Source of the DNA: a virus
DNA: 64,000 nucleotides
Strand: one strand, 5' to 3'
Virus record (IMG/VR): IMGVR_UViG_3300029288_006769
Span: 122,367 to 186,366 of that record
The notes under the pieces are model-generated. The model was not told where the DNA came from. It searched no databases and worked only from the letters and a program-made list of their open reading frames with translations. The position numbers were made by a program, and so were the translations under genes. Below, one piece after another: positions 18,445 through 53,329 of this stretch. Each line of letters opens with the position of its first letter. Position 1 is the stretch's first letter.

Positions 18445-19224
18445 TCAGTTGAAGAAGGAGTTATTCGCTCCGCCGACGGTTGTCTGACTGGTTCTTATGA
18501 CGGATTTGCTCACCAGATCGACAGTCCTGCGTATTTCGCTCTCGGTAGCGTCAACTGTCATTTTGTTGATGAACCCGACGGAATCAGCAATTGCACCAAG
18601 ATCATCATTGGGATCCTGCTTATAACCGATATAAACAGGGTAGAATCCCTCTTTTTTCAGTGATGCATCGACGACTGTTTTGCAATCGTCAGCTGAATGC
18701 TTGCGCGAATCATTATCGTCACCATCTGAAAAAACTGCAATGATGATTTTTGACCGTACACCACTACTCTTCAGATCCTTGGCGTAAGCTTGCGCTCCGG
18801 TCAATGCATCCATAAGAGCATCATACAGCGCCGTTGAACCACCTTTTGCAGCATACTGTTTTTCGATGGGACCGATATCTGTGGATTTTTTGAACCCATG
18901 GAGGATGGTTGCCCGTGTCGAAAAAACAACCGTACTCACGAGAATCGAGCCACCCTGTTTTGAGCCTTTGAAGGAATTGATGAATTTGTCGTAGCATTCC
19001 CTGACGGTATTCTCATGCATGTTCATCGACAATGAACCGTCAAGGAGCACCTTAACCAGGGTGACATCGTCCGTTTCGATATCATCTACCGAAGCGCCCA
19101 AGCACCCGGTGAGATTTGTTCCGTTCAAACTGTTGATCATCAATGCTGATGCGGCCGGATCCATTGTCTGATCGTTCTGAAACAAGGATTGAATATCACC
19201 AACAGTTGGTTGACTTCCTGCCAT
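18445..19224 (-). CDS. von Willebrand factor A (vWA) domain protein
   Basis: MIDAS DxSxS (LLDGSLSM). Start placed at the internal Met preceded by an AGGAAGG RBS. Lies in a higher-GC segment. Confidence 0.55.
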   Translation of the reverse strand: MAGSQPTVGDIQSLFQNDQTMDPAASALMINSLNGTNLTGCLGASVDDIETDDVTLVKVLLDGSLSMNMHENTVRECYDKFINSFKGSKQGGSILVSTVVFSTRATILHGFKKSTDIGPIEKQYAAKGGSTALYDALMDALTGAQAYAKDLKSSGVRSKIIIAVFSDGDDNDSRKHSADDCKTVVDASLKKEGFYPVYIGYKQDPNDDLGAIADSVGFINKMTVDATESEIRRTVDLVSKSVIRTSQTTVGGANNSFFN

Positions 19225-19243
19225 ATTAAACCGCCTTCCTATT

Positions 19244-20185
19244 TTAAAAGATTTTGTCTGTGCTATTGACGATGTGTACGCCTTCTTTGATGAAGCCGTC
19301 GAACTGTGCTTCAGCAATAGCATCGAAATCGACATCCGGATTCTTGACCGAGCTCATGCAGTTTCTCAGGATCCATATCTTCTCGAGAATTGCAGTCTGT
19401 CCCTTGAAGAAAGCGATCAGCTGCCTGAGGGATTCAAGCACGCAGTGCGACTTTGCTTCGCCGACGACTATGATTTTGTCGTATTTCCCGAGTACATTGC
19501 AGAATCCCGTATTGATACCGGATGCCCTGGGGTTTTTGGGTACCAGGACTTCGGGCCGGAAAATACCATACATTTCGGTTTCCGGTACGTCGCCTTTGAT
19601 TTGGAAACTGATTTGCGACCGGCGAATCAATGCGTGGTAGTAAAGGATTTCATAGAGCGCCGGTACGAGAGCATGTCCCGGTGTACCGAGCATGGTGTGT
19701 TCCGGCCAGATAATCAGGGGCTGTTTGGTTTGTGCTTCGAGTGTTTTGATGTAATCAAGCGACCATACAGGGTCGATGACCGGTTTGAATTTGCCTTTTT
19801 CCACGTCTGCGGCCGTGATGAACGTGAACGGCGCCGGATGCTGACCTTTTTCATCGAGCCACCAGTTCCCGTAGAAAATTTGGAAAACCAGGTGGGTATC
19901 GAGAGTTGGATAGATTGTTGTGATTCTATCCATGTGCTCGAGAATGAAATCGATAATGTTGAACATATCCATTTCAGCATTATCAACGTACAGTTGACCG
20001 GTAGGCCGTGGGCAACAGAAATCCACCTGACAGTCAATTGCGAGTAATGCCGTTCTCTGTCCAGGTTTATCCATTACCGATGGTATTGGAGTAAGGCGAG
20101 CGGCCTCTTCCTTTACCCTGGTGATGTCTGGGACATATAGAGCCCCAATCTTCGACTGATCAAAGAAACTTGGTTTGGACGCCAT
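19244..20185 (-). CDS. isochorismatase-family hydrolase, PncA-like nicotinamidase candidate
   Basis: ALLAIDCQVDFCCP resembles PncA IIVDVQNDFCEGG; catalytic Cys context GEAKSHCVLES. Confidence 0.5.
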   Translation of the reverse strand: MASKPSFFDQSKIGALYVPDITRVKEEAARLTPIPSVMDKPGQRTALLAIDCQVDFCCPRPTGQLYVDNAEMDMFNIIDFILEHMDRITTIYPTLDTHLVFQIFYGNWWLDEKGQHPAPFTFITAADVEKGKFKPVIDPVWSLDYIKTLEAQTKQPLIIWPEHTMLGTPGHALVPALYEILYYHALIRRSQISFQIKGDVPETEMYGIFRPEVLVPKNPRASGINTGFCNVLGKYDKIIVVGEAKSHCVLESLRQLIAFFKGQTAILEKIWILRNCMSSVKNPDVDFDAIAEAQFDGFIKEGVHIVNSTDKIF

Positions 20186-20198
20186 ATCTGAACTCCTT

Positions 20199-22073
20199 CT
20201 ATTTAATAAGTCTTAAAAATTTGGCATCATGTTCCGAAACAGCTAATATTCCATCTTTATATATTGACAAAGAACAACCTGAGTCAACAAATTGTTCAGT
20301 TTCTTTCTTGAGAGTAAATTGTCCTTTTCGCTCGATTACTATCCCGGCATCCGTAGGATGTACTATAGAAGAACCGAGTAGAATTTTCCCTTCGATAGTT
20401 TTCAAGAATGGAGAACTTATTGATTCTTCTTTTTTAGAATCGAGAATTTTTCCTTCATCATCAATCAAATAATAATAGGAATAAGTTCGACCTTTGTCCA
20501 AAGTTTTAAATAAAAACAAGACAGTACCTCTTGAAATTTCAGCACAATACTCAATAAGTTGTCCTTGAATCGAAGGAATTGCAGTTTCGTATCTACCTTT
20601 ACCTGAAAAAACTACAAAATAGTATTGTTGGAATATCCTGTAAAACAAGATACCAAGACCGGATGGACCTACTGCAAACCATGTTTGATTTTGAAGCGTT
20701 TGCATTACGACAGTATCAGTCAGATTGCCTTGTACGACTTCTGTCGCAATCAAAGCTTGATCCGTCAAACGGTATAATTTTGAACCGCTACAACCAATCA
20801 TAGTCTTATGGTCAAATTGTAATGTTGTTGTCTTTGCTACAGGTTTGAGTTGATTACCAGCAAGTTCGACGACCATGAGGTAGTTTGTTCCCACGACAAG
20901 GTAATTTTTGAAGAAATCAAAAACCGTATCACGTTTATGGCCATCCCAAATTTTGTGGGTGTATCGAGCTTTTTCTGTTATTTCATGCACTTTGGTTTGA
21001 CTACCAGCATATTCAACGATAATTACTCTATTGTCCTCAAGAACTTTAGAATAGAGTATTGAACCCTCGGTTTTAAATATTGTTTCAGACAAACATTTAC
21101 CTGCATCTACGGTATGAGTAACCACTATATGGGTTATGAGTGGTGCTGGTTGAACTGTTGTAACAAAGCACACAGGACATTTCGCTCTTCCTTTATAATA
21201 CCAACCGTTACATTGATTGCATTTTTCAAATTGGTTTTTATGTGCTGTTAAAAGAGCAGCCGGTATATCAACCCTTTCGCCAAGCCTGAATATTTTGTCA
21301 AAGATGTCAAGCAATTCTGGGCTTATAGTTTCAGGTTTATTCGAAATCCTTGGATATGTTACTGAAGAATCCATGATATAGATTTTTCTTCTTGCTCTTT
21401 CGACAATAGAATCGTAGGTTGCATGAGTGCCGCCATAAGGGTGTGCTAAAAGTAGACATTTGAAAAGCATGACGGCAAAACTATACCAATCTGTTTCTTT
21501 TGTGAAATACGGTTTATCAGCAAGATTGAGCCCGTAAAGATTTGGATCAAGATAAGTATCTGTTCCTACAGCACATGGCCAATCACCAACCTGGAACGAA
21601 TCGACATCTATGTAAATAGAACCAAATTTCGGGGTAAACATTACATTCAAATCGTTATTGTCTCCGATAAATAATCTTGGTGCAACATGTATTGCATCCA
21701 TTGTCAGTTTTGAGTCTACAAAAAAATCAATAATATCATTAGGAGTGATTTGTTCTGTTTTCCTGAATTGTTTATTGGAAAGATTGATTACTTCTTTACC
21801 TTTTGCTAAAGGCATGGAAAATCCCACGATGTCATTACCTCTTGCGTCCAAGATGACATCAATGGGATAAGCTATATTTGTTGGGAGTTTAAGACTTGAA
21901 CCCACTTTTATAAATGCTAAAAGTTTCTCAGCCCTCGTTTTTGATGGTTGATGATAAACTTTTAGAGCTACTCCTTTATGAAGGACTACAGTAGCTTCAC
22001 CACCGACACCTAATGCACTGGTATCATCTACTAAGATCTTGTCATTCTTGTAGATTACTGTTTTGGTCGCCAT
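20199..22073 (-). CDS. Ser/Thr protein-kinase-like domain protein with large C-terminal region
   Basis: glycine-rich loop LGVGGEATVV followed by ALKVY (VAIK-like Lys); catalytic-loop motifs atypical. Confidence 0.4.
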   Translation of the reverse strand: MATKTVIYKNDKILVDDTSALGVGGEATVVLHKGVALKVYHQPSKTRAEKLLAFIKVGSSLKLPTNIAYPIDVILDARGNDIVGFSMPLAKGKEVINLSNKQFRKTEQITPNDIIDFFVDSKLTMDAIHVAPRLFIGDNNDLNVMFTPKFGSIYIDVDSFQVGDWPCAVGTDTYLDPNLYGLNLADKPYFTKETDWYSFAVMLFKCLLLAHPYGGTHATYDSIVERARRKIYIMDSSVTYPRISNKPETISPELLDIFDKIFRLGERVDIPAALLTAHKNQFEKCNQCNGWYYKGRAKCPVCFVTTVQPAPLITHIVVTHTVDAGKCLSETIFKTEGSILYSKVLEDNRVIIVEYAGSQTKVHEITEKARYTHKIWDGHKRDTVFDFFKNYLVVGTNYLMVVELAGNQLKPVAKTTTLQFDHKTMIGCSGSKLYRLTDQALIATEVVQGNLTDTVVMQTLQNQTWFAVGPSGLGILFYRIFQQYYFVVFSGKGRYETAIPSIQGQLIEYCAEISRGTVLFLFKTLDKGRTYSYYYLIDDEGKILDSKKEESISSPFLKTIEGKILLGSSIVHPTDAGIVIERKGQFTLKKETEQFVDSGCSLSIYKDGILAVSEHDAKFLRLIK

Positions 22074-22806
22074 TTTGTTTCTCGATTACTATGCAAGTTG
22101 CGTCATCCCCAAAGAGTTTTTGATCATGCCACAAATTGAACTTTCTTTGAAGTTGACGTTTGTGCGTTCCATATAATTGCGAATCTAATCCATTATCAAT
22201 AAGAGGCTGAATTCCATCTGTCCCTATGATAATGGAATCAATTTCGTTTTGATCAAAAACTTTTATTGTAAAAAAACTAAGTTCAGTTGGCCGTTTTTCA
22301 AGGGCTTCTTTGGGTATGGCCTTGTATGCAATATATTCAGGTGTTCCTGCTTGATGAATTTCGTGTATTTGTTTATTTAAAATGATGATTCCATCACCAC
22401 AATTTCCGACAATTACTTTGTCGTTTACCAAGATAGTAAACAGACATGTACTCAAAAGCATTTCCTTGACAAAGGAAATGCGTTCTGGTACCCAAACGTC
22501 ATCAAAGAACAGAACCCCGAGAAGACGTTTTACAAAAAGATCTAATTCATATTCGATTAAATCTTTTAAACGTTCGGAGTCAATGACTTTGAATTTAGCA
22601 TCTTGTAAAGTTCGCACAAAATTTACAATATATGTGCCTATGAGAGTAGCACCCACTTCCGAATATTTACTTTCCCCACACCCATCGCACACTGTCGCTA
22701 CTAAAAGCTCTGGTGTTTGATGGGAATGAGCAAAGTCCTGCCTATTCTTAAATGAGAGCTGATGGTCTCGACCGACAATAGAAGCAGTGTTAATAAACCA
22801 ATTCAA
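22042..22806 (-). CDS. PP2C-family Ser/Thr phosphatase
   Basis: ATVCDGCGES (DGxGG-like) and C-terminal IIGTDGI. Confidence 0.45.
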   Translation of the reverse strand: MNWFINTASIVGRDHQLSFKNRQDFAHSHQTPELLVATVCDGCGESKYSEVGATLIGTYIVNFVRTLQDAKFKVIDSERLKDLIEYELDLFVKRLLGVLFFDDVWVPERISFVKEMLLSTCLFTILVNDKVIVGNCGDGIIILNKQIHEIHQAGTPEYIAYKAIPKEALEKRPTELSFFTIKVFDQNEIDSIIIGTDGIQPLIDNGLDSQLYGTHKRQLQRKFNLWHDQKLFGDDATCIVIEKQNGDQNSNLQE

Positions 22807-26519: not shown

Positions 26520-28202
26520 TTAGAATTTTGAAAGTTTCCATGACTGAGCAATTGGTATTCTTCGTCCAAAACCAAATGCTTTCCTATGTAATTTAATACC
26601 TAAAGGAGCCTGCCTGCGTTTGAATTCGGCGTTCTTGATTAGCTGACAGACTCTTTTTACTGCTTCAGGATGTTGATCAGCAATAATTTTGTATTTTTCG
26701 TATTCTGCAGGATCTAACCAGTCGCCTTCAATAAAGAGCTCGAGCAAAGCATCAAGAACAGGATATGGTGGCAAACTGTCGACGTCCTTTTGTCCGGGAG
26801 CCAATTCAGCGGAAGGCGCCTTATCAATGATCGCTTGTGATATTGCTCCCGGGTATAATGTGTTATAATAAGCAGCCAGTTCATAAACTTTCATTTTGGG
26901 TAGATCGGAAATTGGAGAGAGACCGCCGCACATATCCCCATACATAGTACAATATCCGACAGACAATTCGCTCTTATTTCCTGTCGAAAGGACTAAGTAT
27001 CCAAAACGATTCGAGTAAGTCATAAGGATCATGCCACGAATACGAGCTTGCAAATTTTCTTCAGCAATTCCCGTTTTTTCAGGTGTTCCAAAGCATTTGT
27101 TAAATTCTTTGAGAATTGTTTCATAGATTCCCTTAATGGGAAGAGTATGAAAATCTATGCCAAGATTTTTGCAAAGAGCCTCTGAATCTTCATAACTTCC
27201 GGTCGATGAATATTCCGAGGGCATTGTACAACCCATGACTCTTTTAGAGCCAAGAGCTTCTTTTGCAACAGCAGAAACAACAGCGCTGTCTATACCACCA
27301 GATTCTCCTATAGCCACTCCTTTGAAACCACACTTTGTAACATAAGAACGAACACCGCATACTATTTGCTTGAAATAAAATTCGGCATTCGAAGCATACG
27401 GTATATGTTCAATACCACCAGGTGACATGCCATGAGTGTGATAAGCAAGCATTAAAGAATCAATTTCAGATCGTTCCTGAACAAAATCCCCCGACTTGAG
27501 GATTATAGCACCACGTTTGTTTGTGACAAAGCTGTTACCGTCAAAAACAATGTCATCATTACCACCAACCTGATTGACGTAAACAATGGGCATTGCATAT
27601 TGCTTGCTGATCCGCTTTATCATTTCGACTCTTTCTTGATGTTTTCCGACAACAGAAGGAGAGCCGTTGATTGAGATAATGAATTCGACATTTGCATTGA
27701 AAAGATCTTCAACAGGATTTATTGTATAAATTGAATTGTTGTACCACAGATCCTCACAGATAACAATTCCAATACGTATGCCGCGAAATTGAAAAATGCC
27801 CGGTTTTTCTCCCGGTTGAAAATAACGAGACTCATCGAAAATATCATAGGTAGGTAGTAACCTTTTCCTGTAGTTGTATATGACTTCACCTTTATAGCAA
27901 ACTGCAGCCGAATTATAGAGCTTTTTCCCATGGCCTGTATTTTTTTCTACATAGCCGATTATAATTGGAGAATTGATTTCTTTTGTTTGTTCGAGAAACC
28001 ATTTTAATGCTTCGTCTTGATCTGCAAGAAAAGCTGAATAATCGACTAAATCAAGAAGAGGATAGCCAGGGATAGTGAGTTCTGGGAAAACATACATGAA
28101 AACGCCATTGTCAGTTTTTTGCTTTATAAAGTCGATAACTTTTTGAGCATTCCCCATAAAATCACCAACAATCGTGTCGATCTGACATAAGACAATATTC
28201 AT
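26520..28202 (-). CDS. nadE: glutamine-dependent NAD+ synthetase (NadE; CN-hydrolase + NAD synthase domains)
   Basis: 560 aa; PP-loop SGGIDSAV; N-terminal nitrilase-like domain; overall architecture. Confidence 0.85.
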   Translation of the reverse strand: MNIVLCQIDTIVGDFMGNAQKVIDFIKQKTDNGVFMYVFPELTIPGYPLLDLVDYSAFLADQDEALKWFLEQTKEINSPIIIGYVEKNTGHGKKLYNSAAVCYKGEVIYNYRKRLLPTYDIFDESRYFQPGEKPGIFQFRGIRIGIVICEDLWYNNSIYTINPVEDLFNANVEFIISINGSPSVVGKHQERVEMIKRISKQYAMPIVYVNQVGGNDDIVFDGNSFVTNKRGAIILKSGDFVQERSEIDSLMLAYHTHGMSPGGIEHIPYASNAEFYFKQIVCGVRSYVTKCGFKGVAIGESGGIDSAVVSAVAKEALGSKRVMGCTMPSEYSSTGSYEDSEALCKNLGIDFHTLPIKGIYETILKEFNKCFGTPEKTGIAEENLQARIRGMILMTYSNRFGYLVLSTGNKSELSVGYCTMYGDMCGGLSPISDLPKMKVYELAAYYNTLYPGAISQAIIDKAPSAELAPGQKDVDSLPPYPVLDALLELFIEGDWLDPAEYEKYKIIADQHPEAVKRVCQLIKNAEFKRRQAPLGIKLHRKAFGFGRRIPIAQSWKLSKF

Positions 28203-28454
28203 AACTCTCCTTATTCTATGACTTCAAACAAACCGTAGAGAAAGTGCTTGTGATCTTTATATCGGAATGCAACAAATCCATCATATCGAACTACTCTTGC
28301 GCAGGAATCATAGACTTGAACAACAGAACCATCGCAAGCATACCGAAGTATCTGATATGTTCTTGGTTTTTCTTCAGTTTTACTACAACTTATAATCAAA
28401 GTGACTATAAAGAGCAAATTACAACTTATAATCAAGGTGACTATAAAGAATAAT

Positions 28455-31241
28455 TTAACGGATGATTTGCATTTTGTTTGCTGTAACAAAATCTCCCCCA
28501 ATAGAAAATTGATAGACATAAGAACCAGAAGTTAGGTTTATGTTTGAACTATAAGTTCCGGCATTGGTCGTATGATTAAATTTATATACTGTGCTTCCAT
28601 TCATTGAAAAAATTATCAGTTTGACATTGTTTTGTTTTGCAACCGAGTATTTGACCATTCCATTAGAAATAGAAAAAGAATTAGTTAATTTTTGAGTTGC
28701 TGTTATTATAGATGTCGGAATTTCCGCAAGGACGATAACATGATAAACAACCTGGGATTTGCCATCAGAAATTATGAAAGTCAACGTGTCCGAAATTGCT
28801 TTTTTCAAAGACACCTTATAAGTTGAATCTTCGATTTCTACGACAAGGCTAGACACATTGAAGGTGGAGGTATCAATGGAATATATTAACTCATCTCCAT
28901 CAGGGTCTATGACCTTCGCGTTAATTGCTATAGGCGTGTTCAACTTTTTAAAAGTTATTGTAGTGTCATTTGGCACAACAGGTATTCTATTCTTATCTGA
29001 GACCGTTAGAGTAACAGTCCTTTCTACAGCAAGTTCGCCATCAGAAACAACAACCTTAAAAGTCTGTGTCCCAGCTGACGTATAATTGGTAGTAATTTTA
29101 TAAGTATTTGCCTGTGCCAGTAATGTAGTTCCGGAATACCATTTTACTATAGGTGTTGTTCCTTCAGGGTCGCTTGCTGTAACTGAAAGAGTTATGCTAT
29201 CGGTTTCATTTATAGACGTGTCATTGGTAATTGCAACAATTACTGGTGCTCCGTTTATATGTTTGACTATTAGATTATAAGTTTGCTTTGTAAAAGCGCC
29301 ATACGTATCTGTTGCAGTTATTGAAATAACAAGATTACTCCCAGTATCCTGCAACGTGGGCAGCCAAGAGATTAACCCGGAAGATGTCATTGTCATTGTT
29401 GCAGGATGAACAATTAATGTATAGGTAATAGGTTGATCGTCAACAGCTTGAACTTGATAACTATATTGTTGTCCTTCATTTACTGTAGTAATAGGAGTTG
29501 ACGTAAATACTGGAGGGACATTGGTTGTTGAAACTGCAATGTTGTAAGTCAGCGTGTCAAATGTTGGTGTTACATTCTGTTTTTGAATTACATCATAGTG
29601 ATTCGAACTGTCGGTCAAGATTATTTTGACTGTCGTGTCAACTGATGTATGAAGTGGTTCGCCTGAGATTGCAAATTGGTTTTTTGATATTCTTGTCATT
29701 GACAACCAAGAAGGAAGTTTCGAATACGAAAGATATGATGAATCATCATCAGGATCTGAAGTTATAATTGCCTGTGTATATTGTGTTCCTTCGGAGGCTG
29801 TAGTAAGTACCGATTTTGACATTGAAATATTTCTTGAATAGATTTTCAAATTCCAGGTTATTGTATCATAAATAGGAATAGAGAAATTATCTCTTACCTG
29901 AAACTTGATTGTGTATGTTCCTGTCGATAAACTTGTGTCTATTGAAAAAATCGTATCGACGAGATTTATTCCTATCGGATTTTGAATTATGGAATAGGTT
30001 AGTTGCGAATTTGAAGAATGATCAAAAGCATGCAACGTATCGACGTAATTTATTTGTTTTGCTTCATTAAGCAACCCAAGAGAATCTGTAAAATGAGTGT
30101 TGTAGAAAAACGGAGCATAGTTTAAATCGTATTTTACTAAACCATTTGTCCCTGCATCTGCAACCTGATATGTAATTTGTTGTGTTGCATAATCTACTAT
30201 CAAGTCTCTTATTGTGCCCGATATAGATCTTGGGAGATAACAAAGAAAATCGCCTTTTGTAGAAAGGATTTTTGTATTGTCGGTTATGAACCCGGATTGA
30301 AAGGATGTTGTCAGAGACGCTATTGGGCAATAGTCAACATCGACACCCGTACTTGAAATTTTACGTGAATCGTAGAAAAATGTCGTGTCGACTGGATTGA
30401 CCGCAAAAATCTTATGTACGTAACCTGAAGTTTTTACAGTAATACGTATTCCATTATAATATGAAAGTTGTCCTGAAGGATTTGTCAACCAGATACCATT
30501 GTTATCAACAAAATATCCAAGTACGTTTGGAATGATTGTGGTAGTATTGCAATTATCCGTTAATTCATAAAGTGTATCATTTGAAACAAAACGGATTGTA
30601 TTGTCTTTGCAAGTAAGAGTAAGCAACGTAGCATCGGATGATGTCGTTATCGTCGAATTCAATCTCCAGATTCCAAGATGATTTTTATAGATTTTTATTG
30701 TTCTCGATTTGGGTATTGCAATTGCAGTATAAATAGAATCAAGTTTGAAAATTTGAATATATGTATTGATTGTATCTCTCCGCGAGTCGGCAGCTCCGAC
30801 CATAAACAAACCATCAGAAGCAGACCCTCGTATATCAGGATGTGCTTTCCATTCTGTGTTGAGATATCTTTTAACTGAATCAATGTCAACTTGAAAATTC
30901 GGATCGCCTGCCTTTGCTATACCGAAAAAAGGGCTTTGTTGGTAGACACCAATTCCTAAAGTGTCGATTGTGTCGGCAGGTGTACTAACTGTTATTCTAC
31001 CTTTCTTTGCATAAAGACCCCAGTATGTGTCATCGATTTCAGCAGCCAAATACCAACTCTTACTCAGATTTGAAAACTCTGTTATGGGAGAAGACGTGTA
31101 AGTTGCATTCTGTTGTTTCGGCATTGCCGCCATAACTTCCAGCATTAAAACAACGATCATGATGATAGATTTGTGAAGCATATAGAACCTCCTGCTTTGG
31201 GTGTAGTGTTTATATCGTGAGATATATTTTAACACAGCCAA
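28455..31241 (-). CDS. large secreted Ig-like/repeat protein with T9SS-type C-terminal sorting domain
   Basis: N-terminal signal-like hydrophobic segment. Repeated T/S-rich beta-strand modules. C-terminus KLIIFSMNGSTVYKF...LTSGSYVYQFSIGGDFVTANKMQIIR resembles the Por_Secre_tail domain. Confidence 0.5.
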   Translation of the reverse strand: MAVLKYISRYKHYTQSRRFYMLHKSIIMIVVLMLEVMAAMPKQQNATYTSSPITEFSNLSKSWYLAAEIDDTYWGLYAKKGRITVSTPADTIDTLGIGVYQQSPFFGIAKAGDPNFQVDIDSVKRYLNTEWKAHPDIRGSASDGLFMVGAADSRRDTINTYIQIFKLDSIYTAIAIPKSRTIKIYKNHLGIWRLNSTITTSSDATLLTLTCKDNTIRFVSNDTLYELTDNCNTTTIIPNVLGYFVDNNGIWLTNPSGQLSYYNGIRITVKTSGYVHKIFAVNPVDTTFFYDSRKISSTGVDVDYCPIASLTTSFQSGFITDNTKILSTKGDFLCYLPRSISGTIRDLIVDYATQQITYQVADAGTNGLVKYDLNYAPFFYNTHFTDSLGLLNEAKQINYVDTLHAFDHSSNSQLTYSIIQNPIGINLVDTIFSIDTSLSTGTYTIKFQVRDNFSIPIYDTITWNLKIYSRNISMSKSVLTTASEGTQYTQAIITSDPDDDSSYLSYSKLPSWLSMTRISKNQFAISGEPLHTSVDTTVKIILTDSSNHYDVIQKQNVTPTFDTLTYNIAVSTTNVPPVFTSTPITTVNEGQQYSYQVQAVDDQPITYTLIVHPATMTMTSSGLISWLPTLQDTGSNLVISITATDTYGAFTKQTYNLIVKHINGAPVIVAITNDTSINETDSITLSVTASDPEGTTPIVKWYSGTTLLAQANTYKITTNYTSAGTQTFKVVVSDGELAVERTVTLTVSDKNRIPVVPNDTTITFKKLNTPIAINAKVIDPDGDELIYSIDTSTFNVSSLVVEIEDSTYKVSLKKAISDTLTFIISDGKSQVVYHVIVLAEIPTSIITATQKLTNSFSISNGMVKYSVAKQNNVKLIIFSMNGSTVYKFNHTTNAGTYSSNINLTSGSYVYQFSIGGDFVTANKMQIIR

Positions 31242-31285: not shown

Positions 31286-31936
31286 CTACAAAATTATCTT
31301 TTTTTCATGGCCGACATGTAATTGAGGATCTACGAAGATTTGATAGCCTTTTTCTTTAATCAAACGACAAAAAGAAACATCTTCTGAACAAAAATCTTTT
31401 ATTCCGTTAAAATCATAAAATAAAGGACGAAACCATGGATATGATAAAGATTCAAATACACCTTTTTTAATAAGCATAAAACCCATACCAGTATATGCTA
31501 CATCAAGTAACCCTTTGTCTTTTATATCATTATGGGTTAAGAAATCAAAACACCCTTGTTTTTTAAATTTTTCTTCATCCCATTCTTTAACCGTGGCAAA
31601 ATGCATTTGATCCGACATAAGATATATGCCAGAAATAATATTTTTGTCGTAATCAAGTAGTTTTTGAAATTGAGCAGGTTTAAAAATTATGTCGTTGTCT
31701 ATCCACATCAAATGTGTATAATCAATTTTCCCATCAAAAGGTTTTTGGTTTTCTCCCCGCAGAACATCACCACCCAAGCACATATTTCTAGCATAATAAA
31801 CTACTGGAGATTCGCCTCGGGTAAAAACAAATCTTATTTTTTGCCTGACGCAATACACTACTAGTTCTAAGAAACAATCAAAAAATCTACCAGAAAACGA
31901 GGTCCCAGTCAAACAGAAGACGATTTTACTTTCCAT
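31286..31936 (-). CDS. glycosyltransferase (GT2-like) candidate
   Basis: C-terminal EDVSFCRLIKEKGYQIFVDPQLHVGH resembles the GT2 ED.dfc.R...G motif. Confidence 0.4.
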   Translation of the reverse strand: MESKIVFCLTGTSFSGRFFDCFLELVVYCVRQKIRFVFTRGESPVVYYARNMCLGGDVLRGENQKPFDGKIDYTHLMWIDNDIIFKPAQFQKLLDYDKNIISGIYLMSDQMHFATVKEWDEEKFKKQGCFDFLTHNDIKDKGLLDVAYTGMGFMLIKKGVFESLSYPWFRPLFYDFNGIKDFCSEDVSFCRLIKEKGYQIFVDPQLHVGHEKKIIL

Positions 31937-32801
31937 GACCTATTTCGTCTCTAAAAAATTCACATTGGGCATAGACGTTTTGTGAATCTTTTTTGCAGGT
32001 CTTGCATGTGGTATCTTTTTCTTCTAATCTTCCGAATGTTTCGCATGTCCTTGCCGATTCAATTAACTGTTTAATTTCATCAGCAAGCCAGATCCCTTTG
32101 CTTAATCTTTCAACTTTATCTACATTTTTAATTGTTTCACAAATATTTTCAAGTTGAAATTGATAATGTTTTATTTCTTCTTTTAGTTCTTCAATAACCA
32201 TTGATTCCGAGTCAAGTTTCTCAGTTTCATCGAGCATTGTTTTTATGCTCATCTTTCTGTCAGGTATATCGCCTTCAACTTCTCTCTTCAATTCTCTATA
32301 TTTTAAAATACATGATTTTCGTGTTTTTTCTTTTAAAAGTTGTGGGTATTCTTCAACAGCTTGGAGCCCTTCTAATAAACTCCAAATTTTCTGTTTGCTT
32401 ACTTTTTGTTGTTTTTCAAGAAATTCAAAATCAACTTCATGCCCTAAAGATTGCAAACGTTTAAGCGCTTTCAATTCTTCTTGCCAAGTAAGTTGTTTTC
32501 GTCCAAGATTCTCATTGAACATCAATTGAGTTCTTTGCAGATCAGTTAAATTGTCATAAATAATGACAAGAGCATTAGGGATACCTGTTGATTTTAATCC
32601 TAAAAGACGTCTTTCACCTGAAACTAGATCGTATCGATCGCCTTTTCTACAAACAATGATTGGTTGAATGTTGCCATTTGTAGACTTTAAACTTTCTTCA
32701 AGATCTCGAGTTTCTTCAGTTCCGAATTCTTCTCTTATATTAAATGCTGGTATAATATCGATTGAATCAACAGGGATTTCGTCTAGTGTCATGTTTTTCA
32801 T
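31926..32801 (-). CDS. ParB-like nuclease domain protein
   Basis: IQPIIVCRKGDRYDLVSGERRLLG ParB N-terminal domain signature. Confidence 0.5.
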   Translation of the reverse strand: MKNMTLDEIPVDSIDIIPAFNIREEFGTEETRDLEESLKSTNGNIQPIIVCRKGDRYDLVSGERRLLGLKSTGIPNALVIIYDNLTDLQRTQLMFNENLGRKQLTWQEELKALKRLQSLGHEVDFEFLEKQQKVSKQKIWSLLEGLQAVEEYPQLLKEKTRKSCILKYRELKREVEGDIPDRKMSIKTMLDETEKLDSESMVIEELKEEIKHYQFQLENICETIKNVDKVERLSKGIWLADEIKQLIESARTCETFGRLEEKDTTCKTCKKDSQNVYAQCEFFRDEIGHGK

Positions 32802-43075: not shown

Positions 43076-43094
43076 ATTTTTACTCGTTAAAAAA

Positions 43095-43166
43095 CTGGGG
43101 TAGAAGGATTTGCACCTCCGACACCCGGCTCCAAGGGCCAGCGTTCTTCTACTGAACTATACCCCA
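43095..43166 (-). tRNA. tRNA-Gln (anticodon read as UUG; loop CCUUGGA)
   Basis: cloverleaf read by eye: U1:A72 acceptor TGGGGTA/TACCCCA, T-loop, anticodon stem CTGGC/GCCGG. Confidence 0.6.
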
Positions 43167-43180
43167 ATAAATTTCAAACT

Positions 43181-43254
43181 AGCCACAAAGAGACTTGAAC
43201 TCTTAACCTACAGTTTAGGAAACTGTGACTCTATCCAATTGAGCTATGTGGCTA
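43181..43254 (-). tRNA. tRNA-Arg(CCU)
   Basis: acceptor AGCCACA/TGTGGCT, anticodon arm ACAGT-TTCCTAA-ACTGT. Confidence 0.7.
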
Positions 43255-43258
43255 AAAA

Positions 43259-43335
43259 TGGTCGGAACGAGCAGAGTTGAACTGCTGACCCCCTGCACCC
43301 CATGCAGGTGCGCTACCAGGCTGCGCCACGTTCCG
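43259..43335 (-). tRNA. tRNA-Pro(GGG)
   Basis: CGGAACG...GGCGCAGCCTGGTAGCGC D-arm, loop AUGGGGU, encoded CCA. Confidence 0.7.
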
Positions 43336-43353
43336 TTGTTCAAAGAACTTAAA

Positions 43354-43428
43354 TCGGAGTGAGTGGATTTGAACCACCGGCCTTGTGATCCCGGATCACA
43401 CGTTCTAACCAGGCTGAACTACACTCCG
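43354..43428 (-). tRNA. tRNA-Pro(CGG)
   Basis: acceptor CGGAGTG/CACTCCG, anticodon arm TGTGA-TCCGGGA-TCACA. Confidence 0.65.
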
Positions 43429-43432
43429 TATT

Positions 43433-43507
43433 CTGGGGTGAGAAGACTTGAACTTCTAACTTCTGGTTTCAGAGACCAGCGTTCTAAACCAATTGAACTA
43501 CACCCCA
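43433..43507 (-). tRNA. tRNA-Gln(CUG)
   Basis: acceptor TGGGGTG/CACCCCA, anticodon arm CTGGT-CTCTGAA-ACCAG. Confidence 0.7.
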
Positions 43508-43513
43508 ATAAAA

Positions 43514-43591
43514 TGGTCGGGATGAGAGGATTTGAACCTCCGACACCTGCGTCCCAGGCGCAGTGCTCTAACCAGACTGAGCTACATCCCG
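43514..43591 (-). tRNA. tRNA-Pro(UGG)
   Basis: acceptor CGGGATG/CATCCCG, arm CTGCG-CCTGGGA-CGCAG, encoded CCA. Confidence 0.7.
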
Positions 43592-43609
43592 TAATTCAAA
43601 GAACTCTAA

Positions 43610-43645
43610 ACAAAACGGCCCCTCTTTTTTGGAGAGGAGCCGTTT
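43610..43645. terminator. GC-rich hairpin flanked by T/A runs (bidirectional terminator-like)
   Basis: AAACGGCCCCTCT-TTTTTGG-AGAGGAGCCGTTT perfect 13-bp stem. Confidence 0.55.
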
Positions 43646-43788
43646 GAAATTTCGTTTTTGTCTTTCAGTTATTTCAACAGCAGCCCTCTCCAGGTTATGT
43701 TCCTGGGTTGTTGTGGTTGCGGCTGTTGAAAAAATATTTTCATAGTTTAAATATAACATAAATTATTGCAAGTGTAAATATTTTTATG

Positions 43789-44268
43789 TCATAATACAAA
43801 AAATTCTGCATAATTGTTTTCATAAAGTCTCATATTGTCTAGAATATTTGGCTCTACTTCTAACATATTGTCTTTTCTAAGAGGATATAAAAAACAATTA
43901 TCCTCTGGGCTCGGATCCATTACGAGAATTTTGTTGTTGTTCTTTTTTATTCGTACTGCATGATTAAACCAAGGCAAAGGACTTCCATTACTTTTATGAA
44001 AAATGATGACAATAACGTCTTGATTGGGATACTTTGAGAATATTTCAAAAGTTTTGATACCTGAATCTTTGTAAATATAGAACCCGTTAAATGTTTCATT
44101 TAGAAAATCATAAGTATTAAGGAGATTAGTTGTGCCAGTTTGTTCAGCAAGCTGAATATTAATATGATATTGATATTCTAAATTTTTTATATAATAAGTG
44201 TTATATGAAATTCTTATATTTATTTTGTTTGTTTTGTTTGTGTTCAAGTTCAGCACCATGGTTGTCAT
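43789..44268 (-). CDS. hypothetical protein
   Basis: ORF. Confidence 0.3.
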   Translation of the reverse strand: MTTMVLNLNTNKTNKINIRISYNTYYIKNLEYQYHINIQLAEQTGTTNLLNTYDFLNETFNGFYIYKDSGIKTFEIFSKYPNQDVIVIIFHKSNGSPLPWFNHAVRIKKNNNKILVMDPSPEDNCFLYPLRKDNMLEVEPNILDNMRLYENNYAEFFVL

Positions 44269-44409
44269 ATAGCGTCATATATGTAGGTTCTGAAAAAGAA
44301 TGTGACATGCTTTTGAAGGAATTAGAAAAGAAAAATCAAGAATGTAGAGTGATTTGTCATGATAGTGGTGCTGTTTACGAAATCAATTATAGACCAATCA
44401 AATAGTTTT

Positions 44410-45279
44410 TTAGACTCCTTTAGCAAGATAATCCCAAACTTTTTGTTCGTTTATAGCAACCAGAACATAATCACCATTTTCATCAAGTCTCGATCCCCAT
44501 TCACCTTTTTCACTGTAAGGTTTTGCTCTGACCCATGTCCCAATTTCTGGATGCAAATGACATACCGCAGCAGTAGGATCATGAAATTTTTTCCCATCAC
44601 TACCAAGTTTAAATCTCCACGTCATACCTTCGCGGAATAATTCAGCAGCTCGATCTTTTGGGGGAACACTTGTTATGTATTTATGAGTATCAAGATTATA
44701 CATCATATAATGACAAACATTTTTACCAACAAAATGTCTTTCTTTGATATCCATTTTTAAGAAGTTAAAAGCACCCTTTTTGTCACCATTTAAATTGAAA
44801 GTTGGGACTGTTTGTTTTCCTTTGAATTTATCAAGCATTTTCACAGTAATACCATGTGTCATATAACCAATAAAACCACCTTGCATAGTTGCACAATTTA
44901 ATTGTACGGGCAAATTATAATGGCCTAAATTTTGAAGAGGTCCACATCCGAAAAAATCAACATCATCATCAACAAGAACACGTCTGATAACTTCATTTGC
45001 AAGAATTGCGTTTGAAGAATAATATGGAAATTTATATTGATCAAGCATTGCTTTATGAATGTTTGTTGGATGTTCTTTTCTTCTTCCAAGTAAGGGGACA
45101 CCTATGAGAACATCTTTCTTTCCCAGAATTTGAAGTAAAAAATCCACAATAGCGATTTGCATCTCATCACCCGGGCTAATAAGAATACCTTTAATATTCA
45201 CCCCAGCTGAAAATAAATAACATAAAGCAAAAAAATCATCTGGGTCATGACCTATATCTGTTTCGACTAATAGATTCAT
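44410..45279 (-). CDS. inosine-uridine-preferring nucleoside hydrolase family protein
   Basis: N-terminal ETDIGHDPDDFFAL matches the IUNH DTDPGIDDAxAL Asp cluster. Confidence 0.5.
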   Translation of the reverse strand: MNLLVETDIGHDPDDFFALCYLFSAGVNIKGILISPGDEMQIAIVDFLLQILGKKDVLIGVPLLGRRKEHPTNIHKAMLDQYKFPYYSSNAILANEVIRRVLVDDDVDFFGCGPLQNLGHYNLPVQLNCATMQGGFIGYMTHGITVKMLDKFKGKQTVPTFNLNGDKKGAFNFLKMDIKERHFVGKNVCHYMMYNLDTHKYITSVPPKDRAAELFREGMTWRFKLGSDGKKFHDPTAAVCHLHPEIGTWVRAKPYSEKGEWGSRLDENGDYVLVAINEQKVWDYLAKGV

Positions 45280-45625
45280 ATTTACTCGACTTTATACGTA
45301 ATTTTCAACACAATGTTTATGTTAATTACTTGCAAAAGTTACAGATACTTCATTGTCGTTTTCAGTGAGACTAAACGCGAACATTTATTACTTCCTGTTA
45401 TATTGCCAGGGTTTTAAACACCATTTACTCATTGTTTGTTTTGTTTCAAGCCATCTATAATCAGAAATGTCCCAAGATTCATAAAACTTTTTATAAGTTT
45501 TACCATTGGGTACATCTTCAGCTTTCCTTATCGTATGGTTAGCATATCTTTTTTCTTTACTTCGGCCTCTTGATCGATCTGTTACCCACGAAGTACAATA
45601 TGATCGGGACAAAATAAACTCCTTT

Positions 45626-46295
45626 TTAAAGTATTACATTTTTTCTCTCCTTTTTTGTTTTAGAAATTTTCTCCCTTACTTCTTTTCTCTTGGAAACATT
45701 GTTTTCACCACTTATTAAAATTTTTCTTTGTGGATTATTTTTCCAAAAATTTAAGACTGCTTTTGAAATATTTTGTTTTTGTTCTATTGTTCTTTTTCTT
45801 CCTCTTAAAATAAATTTAGGTTTGCCTTTTTGTTTTTTAGACGCATGCGACATTTTTTGTCTAGTAATTTCTGTCGGTTTTCTACCAGACATTGCAAGAC
45901 TCACTTTTTTCTTGCGCTGTTCTGTCCAAGGAGATTTTATAAAACAATCTTTTTTCCCATTCGCAGTATCTTCTTTATACTTACTTCTAATTTCTTCTCT
46001 TCGCGGATTATTTGAAAAACAATCGCCCCCATCACCACCTTTTGTTATATCCAACAGGTGCTCTTGAATTAAGAAACTCTATCCAATATTTTTCTCTTTC
46101 ATTTAGCTGATCTACTTGACATTCTTCTATAATATCTTTTCGAAAATTTTCTTGGCCATATTTTATTATTGCTTTTCGTATAAGTATACCTGATCCATAA
46201 TATTGAATATTATACTTTAATTCTTTCCCGATATAAATTTTGCCATTCAAAAGATTTGTAATTTTATAAATTACGCTTAAACTTGCCATAATCAT
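45626..46295 (-). pseudogene. GIY-YIG homing endonuclease split by a frameshift (catalytic part 46032-46295, NUMOD3-like part 45626-46054)
   Basis: VIYKITNLLNGKIYIGK...YYGSG...GYN ends at a stop; the overlapping frame continues ...KGGDGGD plus NUMOD3 repeats; the intact paralog at 17613-18392 reads GYNLTEGGEGGD across this point. Confidence 0.6.
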
Positions 46296-47311
46296 CTTTT
46301 TCTAAGTGTTCGTTCATAATCTTCAAAACGTATTTTTGCGATTTTTGAACGCTGTTCTGTTCGAACTACAACTCCTTCAGGTTTTCCCAATGCATCATTT
46401 TCAAGCAAAGCGTTTGACATGCCCGGGAGCAGATTTTTCAACCAATCATAAGTCCCTTGAATGGTTTGTGGTGGACATGCTCCAATAATAGAAGGCACTA
46501 TTAGACATCTTATATCTGCTGCTACACTTGCAATTGTTCTGACTCCAACAAAATTTTGTCCCCCATTATCTCTCCAAGCAGCTATTTTTTCTATGGGCAA
46601 ATCAAGTAAATCTTCAAACTCTTTTGCTTCCATCATTATGACATCAAACAACCTGAAACCAAGTTTCCCTGTTTTTGTATAATTTTTTGCCGTTCCTGCT
46701 TTACCCCCATAAACTTCCCCAAATAATACAAAAACAGATTGTTCAAGTTGGTCCCAGTAAATTCTTCTTGCATTGTCAGCCACAGTTTGAATTGTATCAA
46801 CAATATCTAATGTAGGATTATGAATCCAATCTCCAAAACCATAAAGAAGTTCTTCACGAGAACCAATTAGATATGTCCCTTTAGGAAACAAAATAATACG
46901 AGCATTTGTACCATCAATTTTCTCAGAAAGAAAAATTTCGTCATCTGCTGAAAAAGATACAAGAACTTCTTCTTTCAAAGAACCTCTATCCCCAAGAGCA
47001 TGATATGTAAGAATACTTGGGTATTTTGTAGCCGAATTGATTTTTTTCAAATCAAAAGCTCGCATATTCACACAATATTTACCATAATCAGGATTATGTT
47101 TCTTCATAATGTCGTATGTTGCCGGTCTTACTTTCCAGCCTACATTGTCGCAATTACCACAAGCTATACTCATGCTCATAGCAGCTACATCACCTGGCAT
47201 AATTTCTTCGCTATTACAATTAGAACAAGTCATTACTACAAATGCTGACGGTGGACAAATCTTACCCTCATGCTTTATACCACAAAAAATACAATGCTTA
47301 GCTTCACTCAT
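46292..47311 (-). CDS. ATP-dependent RNA ligase (Rnl2-like nucleotidyltransferase) with N-terminal zinc ribbon
   Basis: motif I KIDGTN, motif III FGEVYG, motif V EGVVVR; N-terminal CxxC...CxxC. Confidence 0.55.
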   Translation of the reverse strand: MSEAKHCIFCGIKHEGKICPPSAFVVMTCSNCNSEEIMPGDVAAMSMSIACGNCDNVGWKVRPATYDIMKKHNPDYGKYCVNMRAFDLKKINSATKYPSILTYHALGDRGSLKEEVLVSFSADDEIFLSEKIDGTNARIILFPKGTYLIGSREELLYGFGDWIHNPTLDIVDTIQTVADNARRIYWDQLEQSVFVLFGEVYGGKAGTAKNYTKTGKLGFRLFDVIMMEAKEFEDLLDLPIEKIAAWRDNGGQNFVGVRTIASVAADIRCLIVPSIIGACPPQTIQGTYDWLKNLLPGMSNALLENDALGKPEGVVVRTEQRSKIAKIRFEDYERTLRKR

Positions 47312-48077: not shown

Positions 48078-48098
48078 TAGAACATACTCCTTAAGCCA

Positions 48099-50692: not shown

Positions 50693-50761
50693 CTGACTAT
50701 ATATTAAATATAAATTCTTGCTATTTCAAAGCAAACACGTTAAAGATTTAGATCCATAAGA

Positions 50762-53327: not shown

Positions 53328-53329
53328 AA

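What the first reader, a model, noticed from the sequence alone, without database searches (positions are those of the whole stretch)
28455..31241. 928-aa Ig-repeat surface protein ending in a T9SS C-terminal sorting domain
The protein has a signal-like N-terminus and repeated beta-rich T/S modules. Its last ~70 aa resemble the Por_Secre_tail domain (KLIIFSMNGSTVYKF...SGSYVYQFSIGGDFVTANKMQIIR). T9SS sorting domains are restricted to Bacteroidota. Either the phage hijacks the host T9SS to display an adhesin or depolymerase, or the gene was captured from the host. It also suggests the host phylum.
Basis: partly seen in the sequence, partly recalled or inferred. Interest (0 to 1): 0.55.

Follow-up and report, generated by a model that had tools for sequence, protein, structure and literature searches.

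The report
Megaphage surface protein with T9SS tail
A very large phage carries a conserved gene for a long, exported Ig-repeat protein whose last ~77 residues are a divergent bacterial type IX secretion sorting tag, so the phage probably makes its host display this protein on the cell surface; a real but already-described kind of phage trick.

Summary
The ORF is real, on the minus strand. Its true start is most likely the ATG at 31181, 6 nt after a perfect AGGAGG, giving 908 aa rather than 928.

Architecture: Sec-type signal peptide, an orphan beta-rich N-terminal domain of about 335 aa, about five Ig-like domains (Big_9 passes Pfam's cut-off), a short linker, and a ~77-aa C-terminal beta-sandwich.

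The tail is a divergent T9SS type A sorting domain:
- On the whole protein, TIGR04183 and PF18962 are below their cut-offs.
- The isolated tail scores 27 bits on TIGR04183 (cut-off 23).
- All 10 family tails hit only TIGR04183.
- A profile-profile comparison with 11 validated bacterial CTDs gives 95.7% probability (P=1e-8); domain and shuffle controls are negative.

The gene lies in conserved synteny (ParB, PHROG-1574 protein, this gene, NadE) across a clade of very large phages. An identical protein lies on a 424-kb contig. The N-terminal domain was not found in GTDB species genomes. So it is an old phage gene, not a recent capture.

The host is unidentified. Shine-Dalgarno use is T4-like, unlike two Bacteroidia phages tested. 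This points to a T9SS-bearing FCB-group host outside class Bacteroidia.

Phage-borne T9SS cargo is already published, and I found it on about 55 IMG/VR contigs. This is a new member of a known kind, of modest interest.

The parts
31188..31193 (-). Shine-Dalgarno sequence AGGAGG, 6 nt upstream of the ATG
   Evidence: Read directly from the sequence. It supports the ATG at 31181 as the start rather than the TTG at 31241.
28455..31181 (-). Coding sequence, 908 aa plus stop (TAA at 28455-28457)
   Evidence: ORF list. Same length and start as the NCBI protein P0001, with 2 substitutions. Identical to P0051, which lies on a 424,144-bp contig.
31128..31181 (-). Sec-type signal peptide, residues 1-18 (MLHKSIIMIVVLMLEVMA|A)
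   Evidence: K at position 4, hydrophobic core at 6-16 (KD 3.09), small residue at -1. The same layout occurs in the family members with a complete N-terminus. The cleavage site is inferred from the alignment, not from a dedicated predictor.
30123..31127 (-). Orphan beta-rich N-terminal domain, residues ~19-353, presumed functional 'head'
   Evidence: No Pfam, PHROG, NCBIfam or PDB sequence match. Found in only ~8 clusters of 1.84e9 representative proteins. The AF2 model is poor (pLDDT 47), with a better part at residues ~140-250 made of four-strand repeats. Foldseek hits are almost all beta-propellers at weak scores, so this is a lead only.
29826..30122 (-). First Ig-like domain, residues ~354-452, Y_Y_Y-like
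   Evidence: Pfam Y_Y_Y 15 bits, sub-threshold. This part of the profile (positions 366-458) matches Ig-repeat domains of about 30 bacterial proteins.
29256..29825 (-). Two Ig-like domains, residues ~453-642 (He_PIG / cadherin-like type); the number of such repeats varies between family members
   Evidence: NF038112 Ig-repeat region match, E=2.4e-17. Precomputed He_PIG/Big_9 hits in homologues. Repeat expansion in P0004, P0013 and P0017.
29004..29255 (-). Big_9 / PKD-like Ig domain, residues 643-726
   Evidence: PF17963 Big_9 35.5 bits (cut-off 23.6). PKD_4 24 bits, sub-threshold.
28728..29003 (-). Last Ig-like (cadherin-like) domain, residues ~727-818, with invariant D-x-D-x-D-x-L-x-Y motif (VIDPDGDELIY)
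   Evidence: Cadherin_4 18 bits, sub-threshold. Invariant D32/D34/D36/L38/Y40 in alignment A4. AF2 beta-sandwich with pLDDT 71-84. Calcium binding is inferred from the motif type.
28689..28727 (-). Linker between stalk and CTD, residues ~819-831
   Evidence: AF2 pLDDT below 50 at model residues 97-102, equal to protein residues 824-829. Inferred to be where a PorU-type sortase would cut.
28458..28688 (-). Divergent T9SS type A C-terminal sorting domain, residues ~832-908
   Evidence: TIGR04183 27.0-27.3 bits on the isolated tail, cut-off 23. 10/10 family tails hit only TIGR04183. hhalign against validated CTDs: Prob 95.7%, P=1.1e-8, with negative controls. Seven-strand beta-sandwich with pLDDT 86-90. 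Only ORF in the window and three related loci hit by an HMM built from bacterial CTDs alone.

Best explanation
The gene encodes an exported, adhesin-like surface protein that a very large phage (contig of at least 424 kb) has its host make and display through the host's type IX secretion system.

Proposed steps:
1. The N-terminal signal peptide takes the protein across the inner membrane by Sec. The signal peptide is shown by sequence features; its function is inferred.
2. The ~77-residue C-terminal beta-sandwich is a divergent type A T9SS sorting domain. Homology is shown. It would be recognised by the host's PorV/SprA-type machinery and carried across the outer membrane (inferred).
3. A PorU-type sortase would cut in the flexible linker and attach the passenger to surface lipopolysaccharide. 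This is inferred from established knowledge of type A cargo.
4. The result is a stalk of about five Ig-like domains anchored at its C-terminal end. It holds an orphan, beta-rich and possibly propeller-like N-terminal head away from the infected cell.

What the head binds is unknown. My preferred guess is that it changes the adhesive or receptor properties of the infected cell during a long megaphage infection, either by blocking superinfection or by attaching to particles or neighbouring cells.

The gene is an old, conserved resident of this phage lineage rather than a recent host pick-up.
For: - CTD homology.
- Position at the extreme C-terminus in every full-length family member.
- Seven-strand sandwich with a disordered linker before it.
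- Conserved Sec-type signal peptide and no other TM segment.
- Extracellular-type Ig domains (Big_9, PKD-like, cadherin-like with a DxDxD motif).
- Phage context: DnaE in phrog_405 (E=1.8e-245), phrog_8638, phrog_1574, 25 tRNAs, nearly all ORFs on one strand. A relative lies on a 194.6-kb IMG/VR contig. An identical protein lies on a 424-kb contig.
- The gene lies among replication and metabolism genes, not structural genes.
- Conserved synteny at 38-55% identity.
- Precedent: phage T9SS cargo in Cryophage and in crAss-like contigs, and 62 canonical CTD genes on IMG/VR contigs.
Against: - On the whole protein, both curated CTD models are below their cut-offs. PF18962 stays below its cut-off even on the isolated tail (20.6 against 27).
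- The hallmark P-N-P motif is reduced to N-S-F.
- The host is unknown, so presence of a T9SS is unverified.
- The phage clade uses Shine-Dalgarno sites like T4, unlike the two Bacteroidia phages measured. The best-studied T9SS hosts are therefore unlikely.
- NadE gives no FCB signal.
- The beta-sandwich fold itself is generic; Foldseek returns ordinary Ig tandems.
- There is no expression or localisation data.
Confidence: 0.62

Rival explanations
1. It is a virion protein, such as a fibre, decoration or receptor-binding protein. Its Ig-like domains and C-terminal sandwich bind host surface glycans, and the CTD-like domain acts as a binding module rather than a secretion tag.
For: Ig-like domains are common on phage structural proteins (Fraser et al. 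2006, cited in PMC6949934). In crAss-like contigs, T9SS-sorting-domain ORFs lie next to head genes. The repeat number varies as in fibres. One family member gave a weak crAss tail-hub hit (E=0.018).
Against: A conserved cleavable-type signal peptide would send the protein out of the cytoplasm where virions assemble. The gene lies between ParB/SSB and NadE/dUTPase, with no structural gene in 64 kb. There is no PHROG match at all. The crAss hit is in one member only and far below the cut-off.
Confidence: 0.15
2. The protein is exported by Sec, but the host has no T9SS. The tail is a CTD/FlgD-like Ig fold kept for another reason, such as folding, periplasmic or envelope attachment, or carbohydrate binding.
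For: Strong SD usage does not fit class Bacteroidia. The PNP motif is missing and Pfam is sub-threshold. Bona fide CTDs also cross-hit FlgD Ig-like models, which shows the fold is shared with non-T9SS proteins. NadE relatives are all non-FCB.
Against: All 10 tails hit TIGR04183 and no FlgD or other model. The alignment to real CTDs runs end to end, including the G, GxY and terminal K/R positions. The strict C-terminal position is conserved while the passenger varies. T9SS-bearing FCB lineages outside Bacteroidia exist (PMC7468147, and my own knowledge).
Confidence: 0.13
3. The gene is a recently captured host gene carried as a passenger, with no role for the phage.
For: The Ig repeats and the CTD are bacterial-type modules, with best non-family hits in Gemmatimonadota and other bacteria.
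Against: Same syntenic slot in relatives at 38-55% identity. The N-terminal domain is confined to about 8 clusters, and a motif-based scan of GTDB genomes found none. GC matches the phage. The gene has its own strong SD, like its neighbours.
Confidence: 0.05
4. The window is not a phage but part of a cellular genome, namely the 'Candidatus Nanoarchaeia' MAG it is filed under at NCBI, and the protein is an ordinary cell-surface protein.
For: NCBI labels for MDD5650034.1 and MDD5649348.1.
Against: Bacterial DnaE in a phage family (phrog_405). Families known only from PHROGs. 25 clustered tRNAs and single-strand coding. A relative in IMG/VR. An outer-membrane secretion tag makes no sense in an archaeon. 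SD plus bacterial signal peptides.
Confidence: 0.03

Closest known systems
T9SS type A cargo proteins of the FCB superphylum (TIGR04183 / PF18962 CTD; for example gingipain RgpB, and Ig-repeat adhesins such as the bacterial proteins P0006, P0011, P0019 retrieved here)
   Same: Sec signal peptide, N-terminal functional region, Ig-like stalk, and a ~75-85-aa seven-strand beta-sandwich at the very C-terminus. Conserved G (motif 'NG'), G-x-Y and terminal K/R positions. TIGR04183 passes on the isolated tail. Profile-profile probability 95.7%.
   Different: Encoded by a phage. The P-N-P motif at the start of the domain is N-S-F. PF18962 is sub-threshold. The tail lacks the 5-8-residue insertion seen in many reference CTDs. 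The passenger head is an orphan domain.
Phage-encoded T9SS cargo in 'Cryophage' (Bellas et al. 2020, PMC7468147) and T9SS-sorting-domain ORFs of crAss-like cluster 2 contigs (de Jonge et al. 2019, PMC6949934)
   Same: A phage genome carrying genes with type A sorting domains, interpreted as hijacking the host T9SS. The cargo is variable between phage variants.
   Different: Cryophage cargoes are recognisable enzymes or PA14 proteins sitting in hypervariable islands. Here there is a single, syntenically fixed gene with an orphan head, in a phage clade of at least 424 kb, and with a CTD too divergent to be called by routine whole-protein annotation.
Ig-like decoration proteins of phages (Hoc-type; Fraser et al. 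2006)
   Same: Tandem bacterial Ig-like domains encoded by a phage.
   Different: Those proteins lack signal peptides and sorting domains and are assembled on capsids in the cytoplasm. This protein has both export signals and lies outside any structural module.
Bacteroides hybrid two-component sensors and related proteins with a Reg_prop beta-propeller followed by a Y_Y_Y domain
   Same: A possible beta-propeller followed by a Y_Y_Y-like Ig domain.
   Different: Y_Y_Y scores 15 bits against a cut-off of 26.6. There is no Reg_prop hit in any of 9 members. The propeller call rests on a low-confidence model. There are no kinase or regulator domains.

Membership tests
T9SS type A sorting domain (TIGR04183 Por_Secre_tail) | Score at or above the curated cut-off (23 bits) when the whole protein is scanned | tested here: not met
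   20.7 bits, E=3.1e-4, residues 861-920 of the 928-aa translation.
T9SS type A sorting domain (TIGR04183 Por_Secre_tail) | Score at or above the curated cut-off when the C-terminal domain alone is scanned, and reproducibility across the family | tested here: met
   27.0 and 27.3 bits (E about 3e-6) for the window tail. 5/5 and 10/10 family tails hit, best E=1.3e-6, and no other family is hit.
T9SS type A sorting domain (Pfam PF18962 Por_Secre_tail) | Score at or above the gathering threshold (27 bits) | tested here: not met
   9.3 bits on the whole protein and 20.6 bits (E=5.7e-4) on the isolated tail. 4 of 5 family tails hit at E<=10, best 5.8e-5.
T9SS type A sorting domain | Profile-level homology to validated CTDs, specific relative to other Ig-like domains | tested here: met
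   hhalign A6 against A5 (11/11 of A5 are TIGR04183 hits): Prob 95.7%, P=1.1e-8, 76 columns. Upstream Ig domains give Prob 0.6-2.6%. 200 shuffles give a maximum score of 17.4, against 47.4 observed.
T9SS type A sorting domain | Domain lies at the extreme C-terminus of the protein | tested here: met
   The domain ends at the last residue in the window protein and in P0002-5, P0013, P0014, P0017, P0018. P0015 has 3 extra residues.
T9SS type A sorting domain | Seven-strand Ig-like beta-sandwich fold | tested here: met
   AF2 model residues 108-179: seven strands with pLDDT 86-90. The fold is not specific, since Foldseek returns generic Ig tandems.
T9SS type A sorting domain | Conserved sequence motifs: P-x-P ('PNP') near the start, G in the central strand pair, G-x-Y, and a basic residue at the end | tested here: inconclusive
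   G (NG), G-x-Y and terminal K/R are conserved and align with the reference set. PNP is replaced by N-S-F, with only the N kept.
T9SS cargo (functional definition) | N-terminal Sec signal peptide | tested here: met
   Basic n-region, an 11-residue hydrophobic core with KD 2.2-3.1, and a small residue at -1, in all members with a complete N-terminus. No dedicated predictor was available.
T9SS cargo (functional definition) | Host encodes a T9SS (SprA/Sov, PorV, PorU, PorK-N/GldK-N) | not testable with these tools
   The host is unknown. NadE is uninformative. SD usage argues against class Bacteroidia. No papers mention the source accessions.
T9SS cargo (functional definition) | T9SS-dependent secretion with removal of the CTD | not testable with these tools
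   This needs an experiment.
T9SS type B sorting domain (TIGR04131 / Pfam CHU_C PF13585) | Score at or above the curated cut-off | tested here: not met
   CHU_C 16.2 bits on the whole protein and 21.2 bits on the tail (cut-off 27). TIGR04131 does not appear even at E<=10.
Bacterial Ig-like domain Big_9 (PF17963) | Score at or above the gathering threshold (23.6 bits) | tested here: met
   35.5 bits, 3 stretches, best at residues 663-746 of the 928-aa translation.
Known phage protein families (PHROGs) | Match to any PHROG | tested here: not met
   0 families at E<=1e-3 for the 908-aa protein. No tblastn match in 50,697 phage records.
Reg_prop propeller + Y_Y_Y architecture | Reg_prop and Y_Y_Y Pfam hits above threshold | tested here: not met
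   Y_Y_Y 15 bits against 26.6. No Reg_prop hit in 9 N-terminal regions at E<=1.

The most novel reading that the evidence does not exclude
A clade of megaphages (at least 424 kb) infecting a non-Bacteroidia, Shine-Dalgarno-using FCB-group host has kept, over long divergence, one dedicated T9SS cargo gene. Its orphan, propeller-like head is displayed on the infected cell and works as a phage-directed 'virocell adhesin' or superinfection shield. This would be a lineage-specific surface-remodelling function with no bacterial counterpart, using a sorting signal so diverged (no PNP motif) that it may be tuned to a non-canonical T9SS.
Probability: 0.2. Interest if true: 0.65.

Novelty: new member of a known kind. 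Interest (0 to 1): 0.35.

Why it matters
- **Phage biology.** This adds a conserved, syntenically fixed example from a megaphage clade to the small published set of phage-encoded T9SS cargo. Large phages may routinely re-dress the surface of the cells they infect.
- **Annotation.** Whole-protein HMM scans can miss a real sorting domain when it sits behind long repeat regions. NCBI calls this protein only 'Ig-like domain-containing' and files it under an archaeon.
- **Host inference.** A secretion tag is a useful but imprecise host clue. Here it points to the FCB group, while the translation signals argue against its best-known class.
- **Limits.** None of this overturns current understanding, and the function of the displayed head remains unknown.

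Tried and rejected
- **Word-indexed database search with the CTD profile.** 110 candidates, none significant. This is a sensitivity limit of the tool, not evidence.
- **PDB sequence search with the CTD profile.** Only a weak hit to a Bacteroides putative adhesin, 4qdg (E=0.096), and no solved CTD.
- **Foldseek of the two-domain C-terminal model against PDB.** Generic Ig/FN3 tandems, so the fold cannot discriminate.
- **Host inference from NadE.** Relatives sit at 40-45% identity in Acidobacteriota, Planctomycetota, Spirochaetota, Verrucomicrobiota and others. None of the best 80 loci is from Bacteroidota. Uninformative.
- **Host or relative via DnaE.** About 32% identity to phages of unrelated hosts. 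Uninformative.
- **N-terminal domain.** The AF2 model is poor (pLDDT 47). Foldseek gives weak beta-propeller hits that I treat only as a lead. Pfam on 9 members gives nothing recurrent. A PDB sequence profile search gives nothing credible.
- **Depolymerase idea.** Rejected for lack of any enzymatic signature.
- **Promoter and terminator scan around the gene.** No enrichment and no terminator.
- **Literature search for the source accessions.** No papers.
- **Exact look-up of the window protein's contig.** Not on record. It is, however, identical to cluster member P0051.
- **IMG/VR scan with the diverse CTD alignment.** Replaced by a motif search.
- **Megablast of 20 kb of the window against phage records.** No match.
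Full report
**1. The observation**

An uninterrupted reading frame spans 28455..31241 on the minus strand. The 928-aa figure uses the first possible start, a TTG. The ATG at 31181 is preceded by a perfect AGGAGG at 31188-31193 with a 6-nt spacer. The public copy of the protein, MDD5650034.1, starts there and is 908 aa long. I therefore take 28455..31181 as the gene.

The window protein differs from that NCBI copy at two residues. It is identical to a cluster member, P0051, recorded on a contig of 424,144 bp.

**2. Genome context**

- Nearly all ORFs of at least 100 aa lie on the minus strand, and GC is about 0.33-0.35.
- There are 25 tRNA genes between 43 and 62 kb.
- A 1153-aa DnaE-type polymerase matches phrog_405 at E=1.8e-245. 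Other ORFs match families known only from phages (phrog_8638, phrog_1574, phrog_7371).
- No structural gene was found in the 64 kb, and there is no nucleotide match to 50,697 phage records.
- A relative of the finding gene lies on a 194.6-kb IMG/VR viral contig.

Together with the 424-kb contig, this is the non-structural part of a very large phage. The NCBI label 'Candidatus Nanoarchaeia archaeon' is best explained as a binning error.

The neighbours are ParB-like (31926-32801), a 216-aa PHROG-1574 protein with weak glycosyltransferase similarity (31286-31936), and a glutamine-dependent NAD synthetase (26520-28202). The order ParB, PHROG-1574 protein, this gene, NadE is kept in three other contigs whose copies of the gene are only 38-55% identical.

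**3. Anatomy of the protein**

- **Signal peptide (residues 1-18).** It shows a basic residue at position 4, an 11-residue hydrophobic core and VMA|A. The same layout is seen in every family member with a complete N-terminus. No other segment reaches transmembrane hydrophobicity.
- **N-terminal domain (residues ~19-353).** It matches nothing in Pfam, NCBIfam, PHROGs or PDB sequences, neither in the window protein nor in eight relatives.
  - An exhaustive profile search of 1.84 billion representative proteins found this region in only about eight clusters.
  - A motif-based scan of 185,579 GTDB species genomes found none.
  - Its AF2 model is unreliable (mean pLDDT 47). The better part shows repeated four-strand units, and Foldseek returns almost only beta-propellers at weak scores. 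I treat 'propeller-like' as a lead.
- **Ig-like stalk (residues ~354-818).** It holds about five Ig-like domains. Big_9 passes Pfam's threshold (35.5 against 23.6 bits). PKD_4, Cadherin_4 and Y_Y_Y are sub-threshold. The last domain carries an invariant DxDxD-L-Y motif. The number of these repeats varies from member to member, giving proteins of 900 to 1593 aa.
- **Linker.** A short low-confidence linker at residues ~824-829 precedes the tail.

**4. Is the tail a T9SS sorting domain?**

Scanning the whole protein nearly meets that condition. TIGR04183 scores 20.7 bits (cut-off 23) and PF18962 scores 9.3 bits (cut-off 27). This is a composition and length effect:

- The isolated 84-86-residue tail scores 27.0-27.3 bits on TIGR04183 (E about 3e-6). 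PF18962 rises to 20.6 bits, still sub-threshold.
- All ten family tails hit TIGR04183, and none hits any other NCBIfam model.

I confirmed that all 11 are TIGR04183 hits, with best E=7e-13. I then compared the two alignments profile to profile:

- The result is probability 95.7%, P=1.1e-8, score 47.4, aligned end to end over 76 columns.
- The two Ig-like domains just upstream in the same phage proteins score 13-17 (probability below 3%) against the same reference.
- 200 column-shuffled versions of the tail profile average 10.4 with a maximum of 17.4, and a reversed version scores 9.8.
- An HMM built from the bacterial CTDs alone, run over all 551 stop-to-stop ORF pieces of the window and three related loci, picks out only this gene and its orthologues, each at its C-terminus.
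- AF2 predicts a seven-strand sandwich at pLDDT 86-90. That agrees with the known CTD fold but is not specific.

The conserved G, G-x-Y and terminal K/R positions align with the reference. The P-N-P motif is reduced to N-S-F. I conclude that the tail is a genuine but divergent type A sorting domain. Type B (CHU_C/TIGR04131) is not supported.

**5. Mechanism**

From established knowledge of T9SS (reviews by Lasica et al. 2017 and Veith et al. 2017, as cited in PMC7468147), a cargo needs a Sec signal peptide and a C-terminal sorting domain. Type A domains are removed by the PorU sortase, and the passenger is attached to anionic LPS.

This protein has both signals and a flexible linker where cleavage would occur. 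Its architecture would place the orphan head at the tip of an Ig stalk anchored at the cell surface. The signals are shown. Their use by a host T9SS, the cleavage and the anchoring are inferred.

The gene's position among replication and metabolism genes, and the signal peptide, argue against a virion role. I cannot say what the head binds. Superinfection exclusion or altered adhesion of the infected cell are the most plausible purposes, and both are speculative.

**6. Origin**

Recent capture from the host is not supported. The reasons are the fixed syntenic position at 38-55% identity, phage-like GC (0.36 against 0.345), its own strong SD, and an N-terminal domain found in very few protein clusters and not in GTDB genomes by the motif scan. 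The Ig and CTD modules are of bacterial type and were presumably acquired long ago.

**7. Host**

The CTD points to a T9SS-bearing bacterium, which means the FCB superphylum rather than Bacteroidota alone (PMC7468147).

An unexpected observation qualifies this. Measured with one crude method, strict SD motifs precede:
- 33% of window genes and 39-48% of genes in two relatives,
- 31% of T4 genes,
- 21% of genes in Bacteroides phage crAss001,
- 0% of genes in Flavobacterium phage 11b.

Background is 2-6% in each case. The finding gene itself has a perfect AGGAGG.

Class Bacteroidia is known to make little use of SD (my own knowledge). The host is therefore more likely an SD-using FCB lineage, but two reference phages are a thin calibration. 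NadE and DnaE gave no host signal.

**8. Comparison with what is known, and novelty**

- Bellas et al. 2020 described three T9SS type A cargo genes in 'Cryophage' and proposed hijacking of the host system.
- de Jonge et al. 2019 noted T9SS-sorting-domain ORFs in crAss-like contigs.
- I searched IMG/VR for one narrow back-translated CTD motif, NYPNPFNP. By my estimate it should give about one chance match. It returned 68 matches. Of these, 62 are in frame, lie 79-110 codons before a stop, and hit the CTD HMM. They sit on about 55 viral contigs, several of 160-210 kb. Some of those contigs may include host DNA.

Phage-borne T9SS cargo is therefore a recurrent, published phenomenon. What is particular here is the phage size class, the strict conservation of a single cargo gene, the orphan head, and a sorting domain divergent enough to escape routine annotation.

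I rate it a new member of a known kind, with modest interest.

Noticed in passing
whole window; NCBI GCA_028717785.1 contig JAQUND010000010.1 (L001): The public copy of this locus is filed as a 'Candidatus Nanoarchaeia archaeon' MAG. Its content points to a mis-binned megaphage: a bacterial DnaE in a phage family, 25 tRNAs, SD sites, PHROG-only families, an IMG/VR relative, and an identical protein on a 424-kb contig. The same assembly holds a second member of the protein family (MDD5649348.1) on a 109-kb contig.
   Followed up: partly
window 28384-28455: A 36-nt unit is repeated twice in tandem (89% identical), starting at the gene's stop codon, in the 253-nt gap before NadE. The core 29-mer occurs nowhere else in the window (0 expected by chance). 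Function unknown; it may be regulatory.
   Followed up: partly
window-wide gene starts; also L002, L003: Shine-Dalgarno usage is strong (strict motif before 33-48% of genes, G peak at -10 to -6). It is comparable to T4 and well above crAss001 (21%) and Flavobacterium phage 11b (0%). This is at odds with a class Bacteroidia host.
   Followed up: partly
window 43094-62223: An array of 25 tRNA genes, all on the minus strand, interspersed with small ORFs and an HNH/homing-endonuclease-like ORF (59768-60526). It includes several isoacceptors for Leu, Ser, Lys, Pro, Gln and Met.
   Followed up: no
window 18445-22806: A protein-kinase-like ORF (20199-22073) lies next to a PP2C phosphatase-like ORF (22042-22806). 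A VWA/phrog_7371 ORF (18445-19335) sits in a local GC peak (0.44 against about 0.33).
   Followed up: no
window 31286-31936: The conserved upstream neighbour belongs to PHROG 1574 (E=2e-60, unknown function) and has weak similarity to a phage glycosyltransferase family (E=1e-8). Whether it acts on the exported protein or on the cell surface is open.
   Followed up: no
IMG/VR loci L088-L149: A single CTD motif variant (NYPNPFNP) finds 62 genuine C-terminal T9SS type A domains on about 55 viral contigs, some of 160-210 kb. Several contigs (L097, L107, L112, L132) carry two adjacent CTD genes, including a recurring 718-aa ORF.
   Followed up: partly
window 26520-28202: The phage encodes a full-length glutamine-dependent NAD synthetase (CN_hydrolase + NAD_synthase). 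It is conserved across the clade and 40-45% identical to enzymes from many bacterial phyla.
   Followed up: partly
L003 9687-12490: The P0005 orthologue was called 829 aa and lacks the signal peptide, with an 85-aa ORF just upstream. The stop-to-stop frame is 872 aa. This suggests a frameshift, an assembly error or a mis-called start rather than a truly truncated protein.
   Followed up: no
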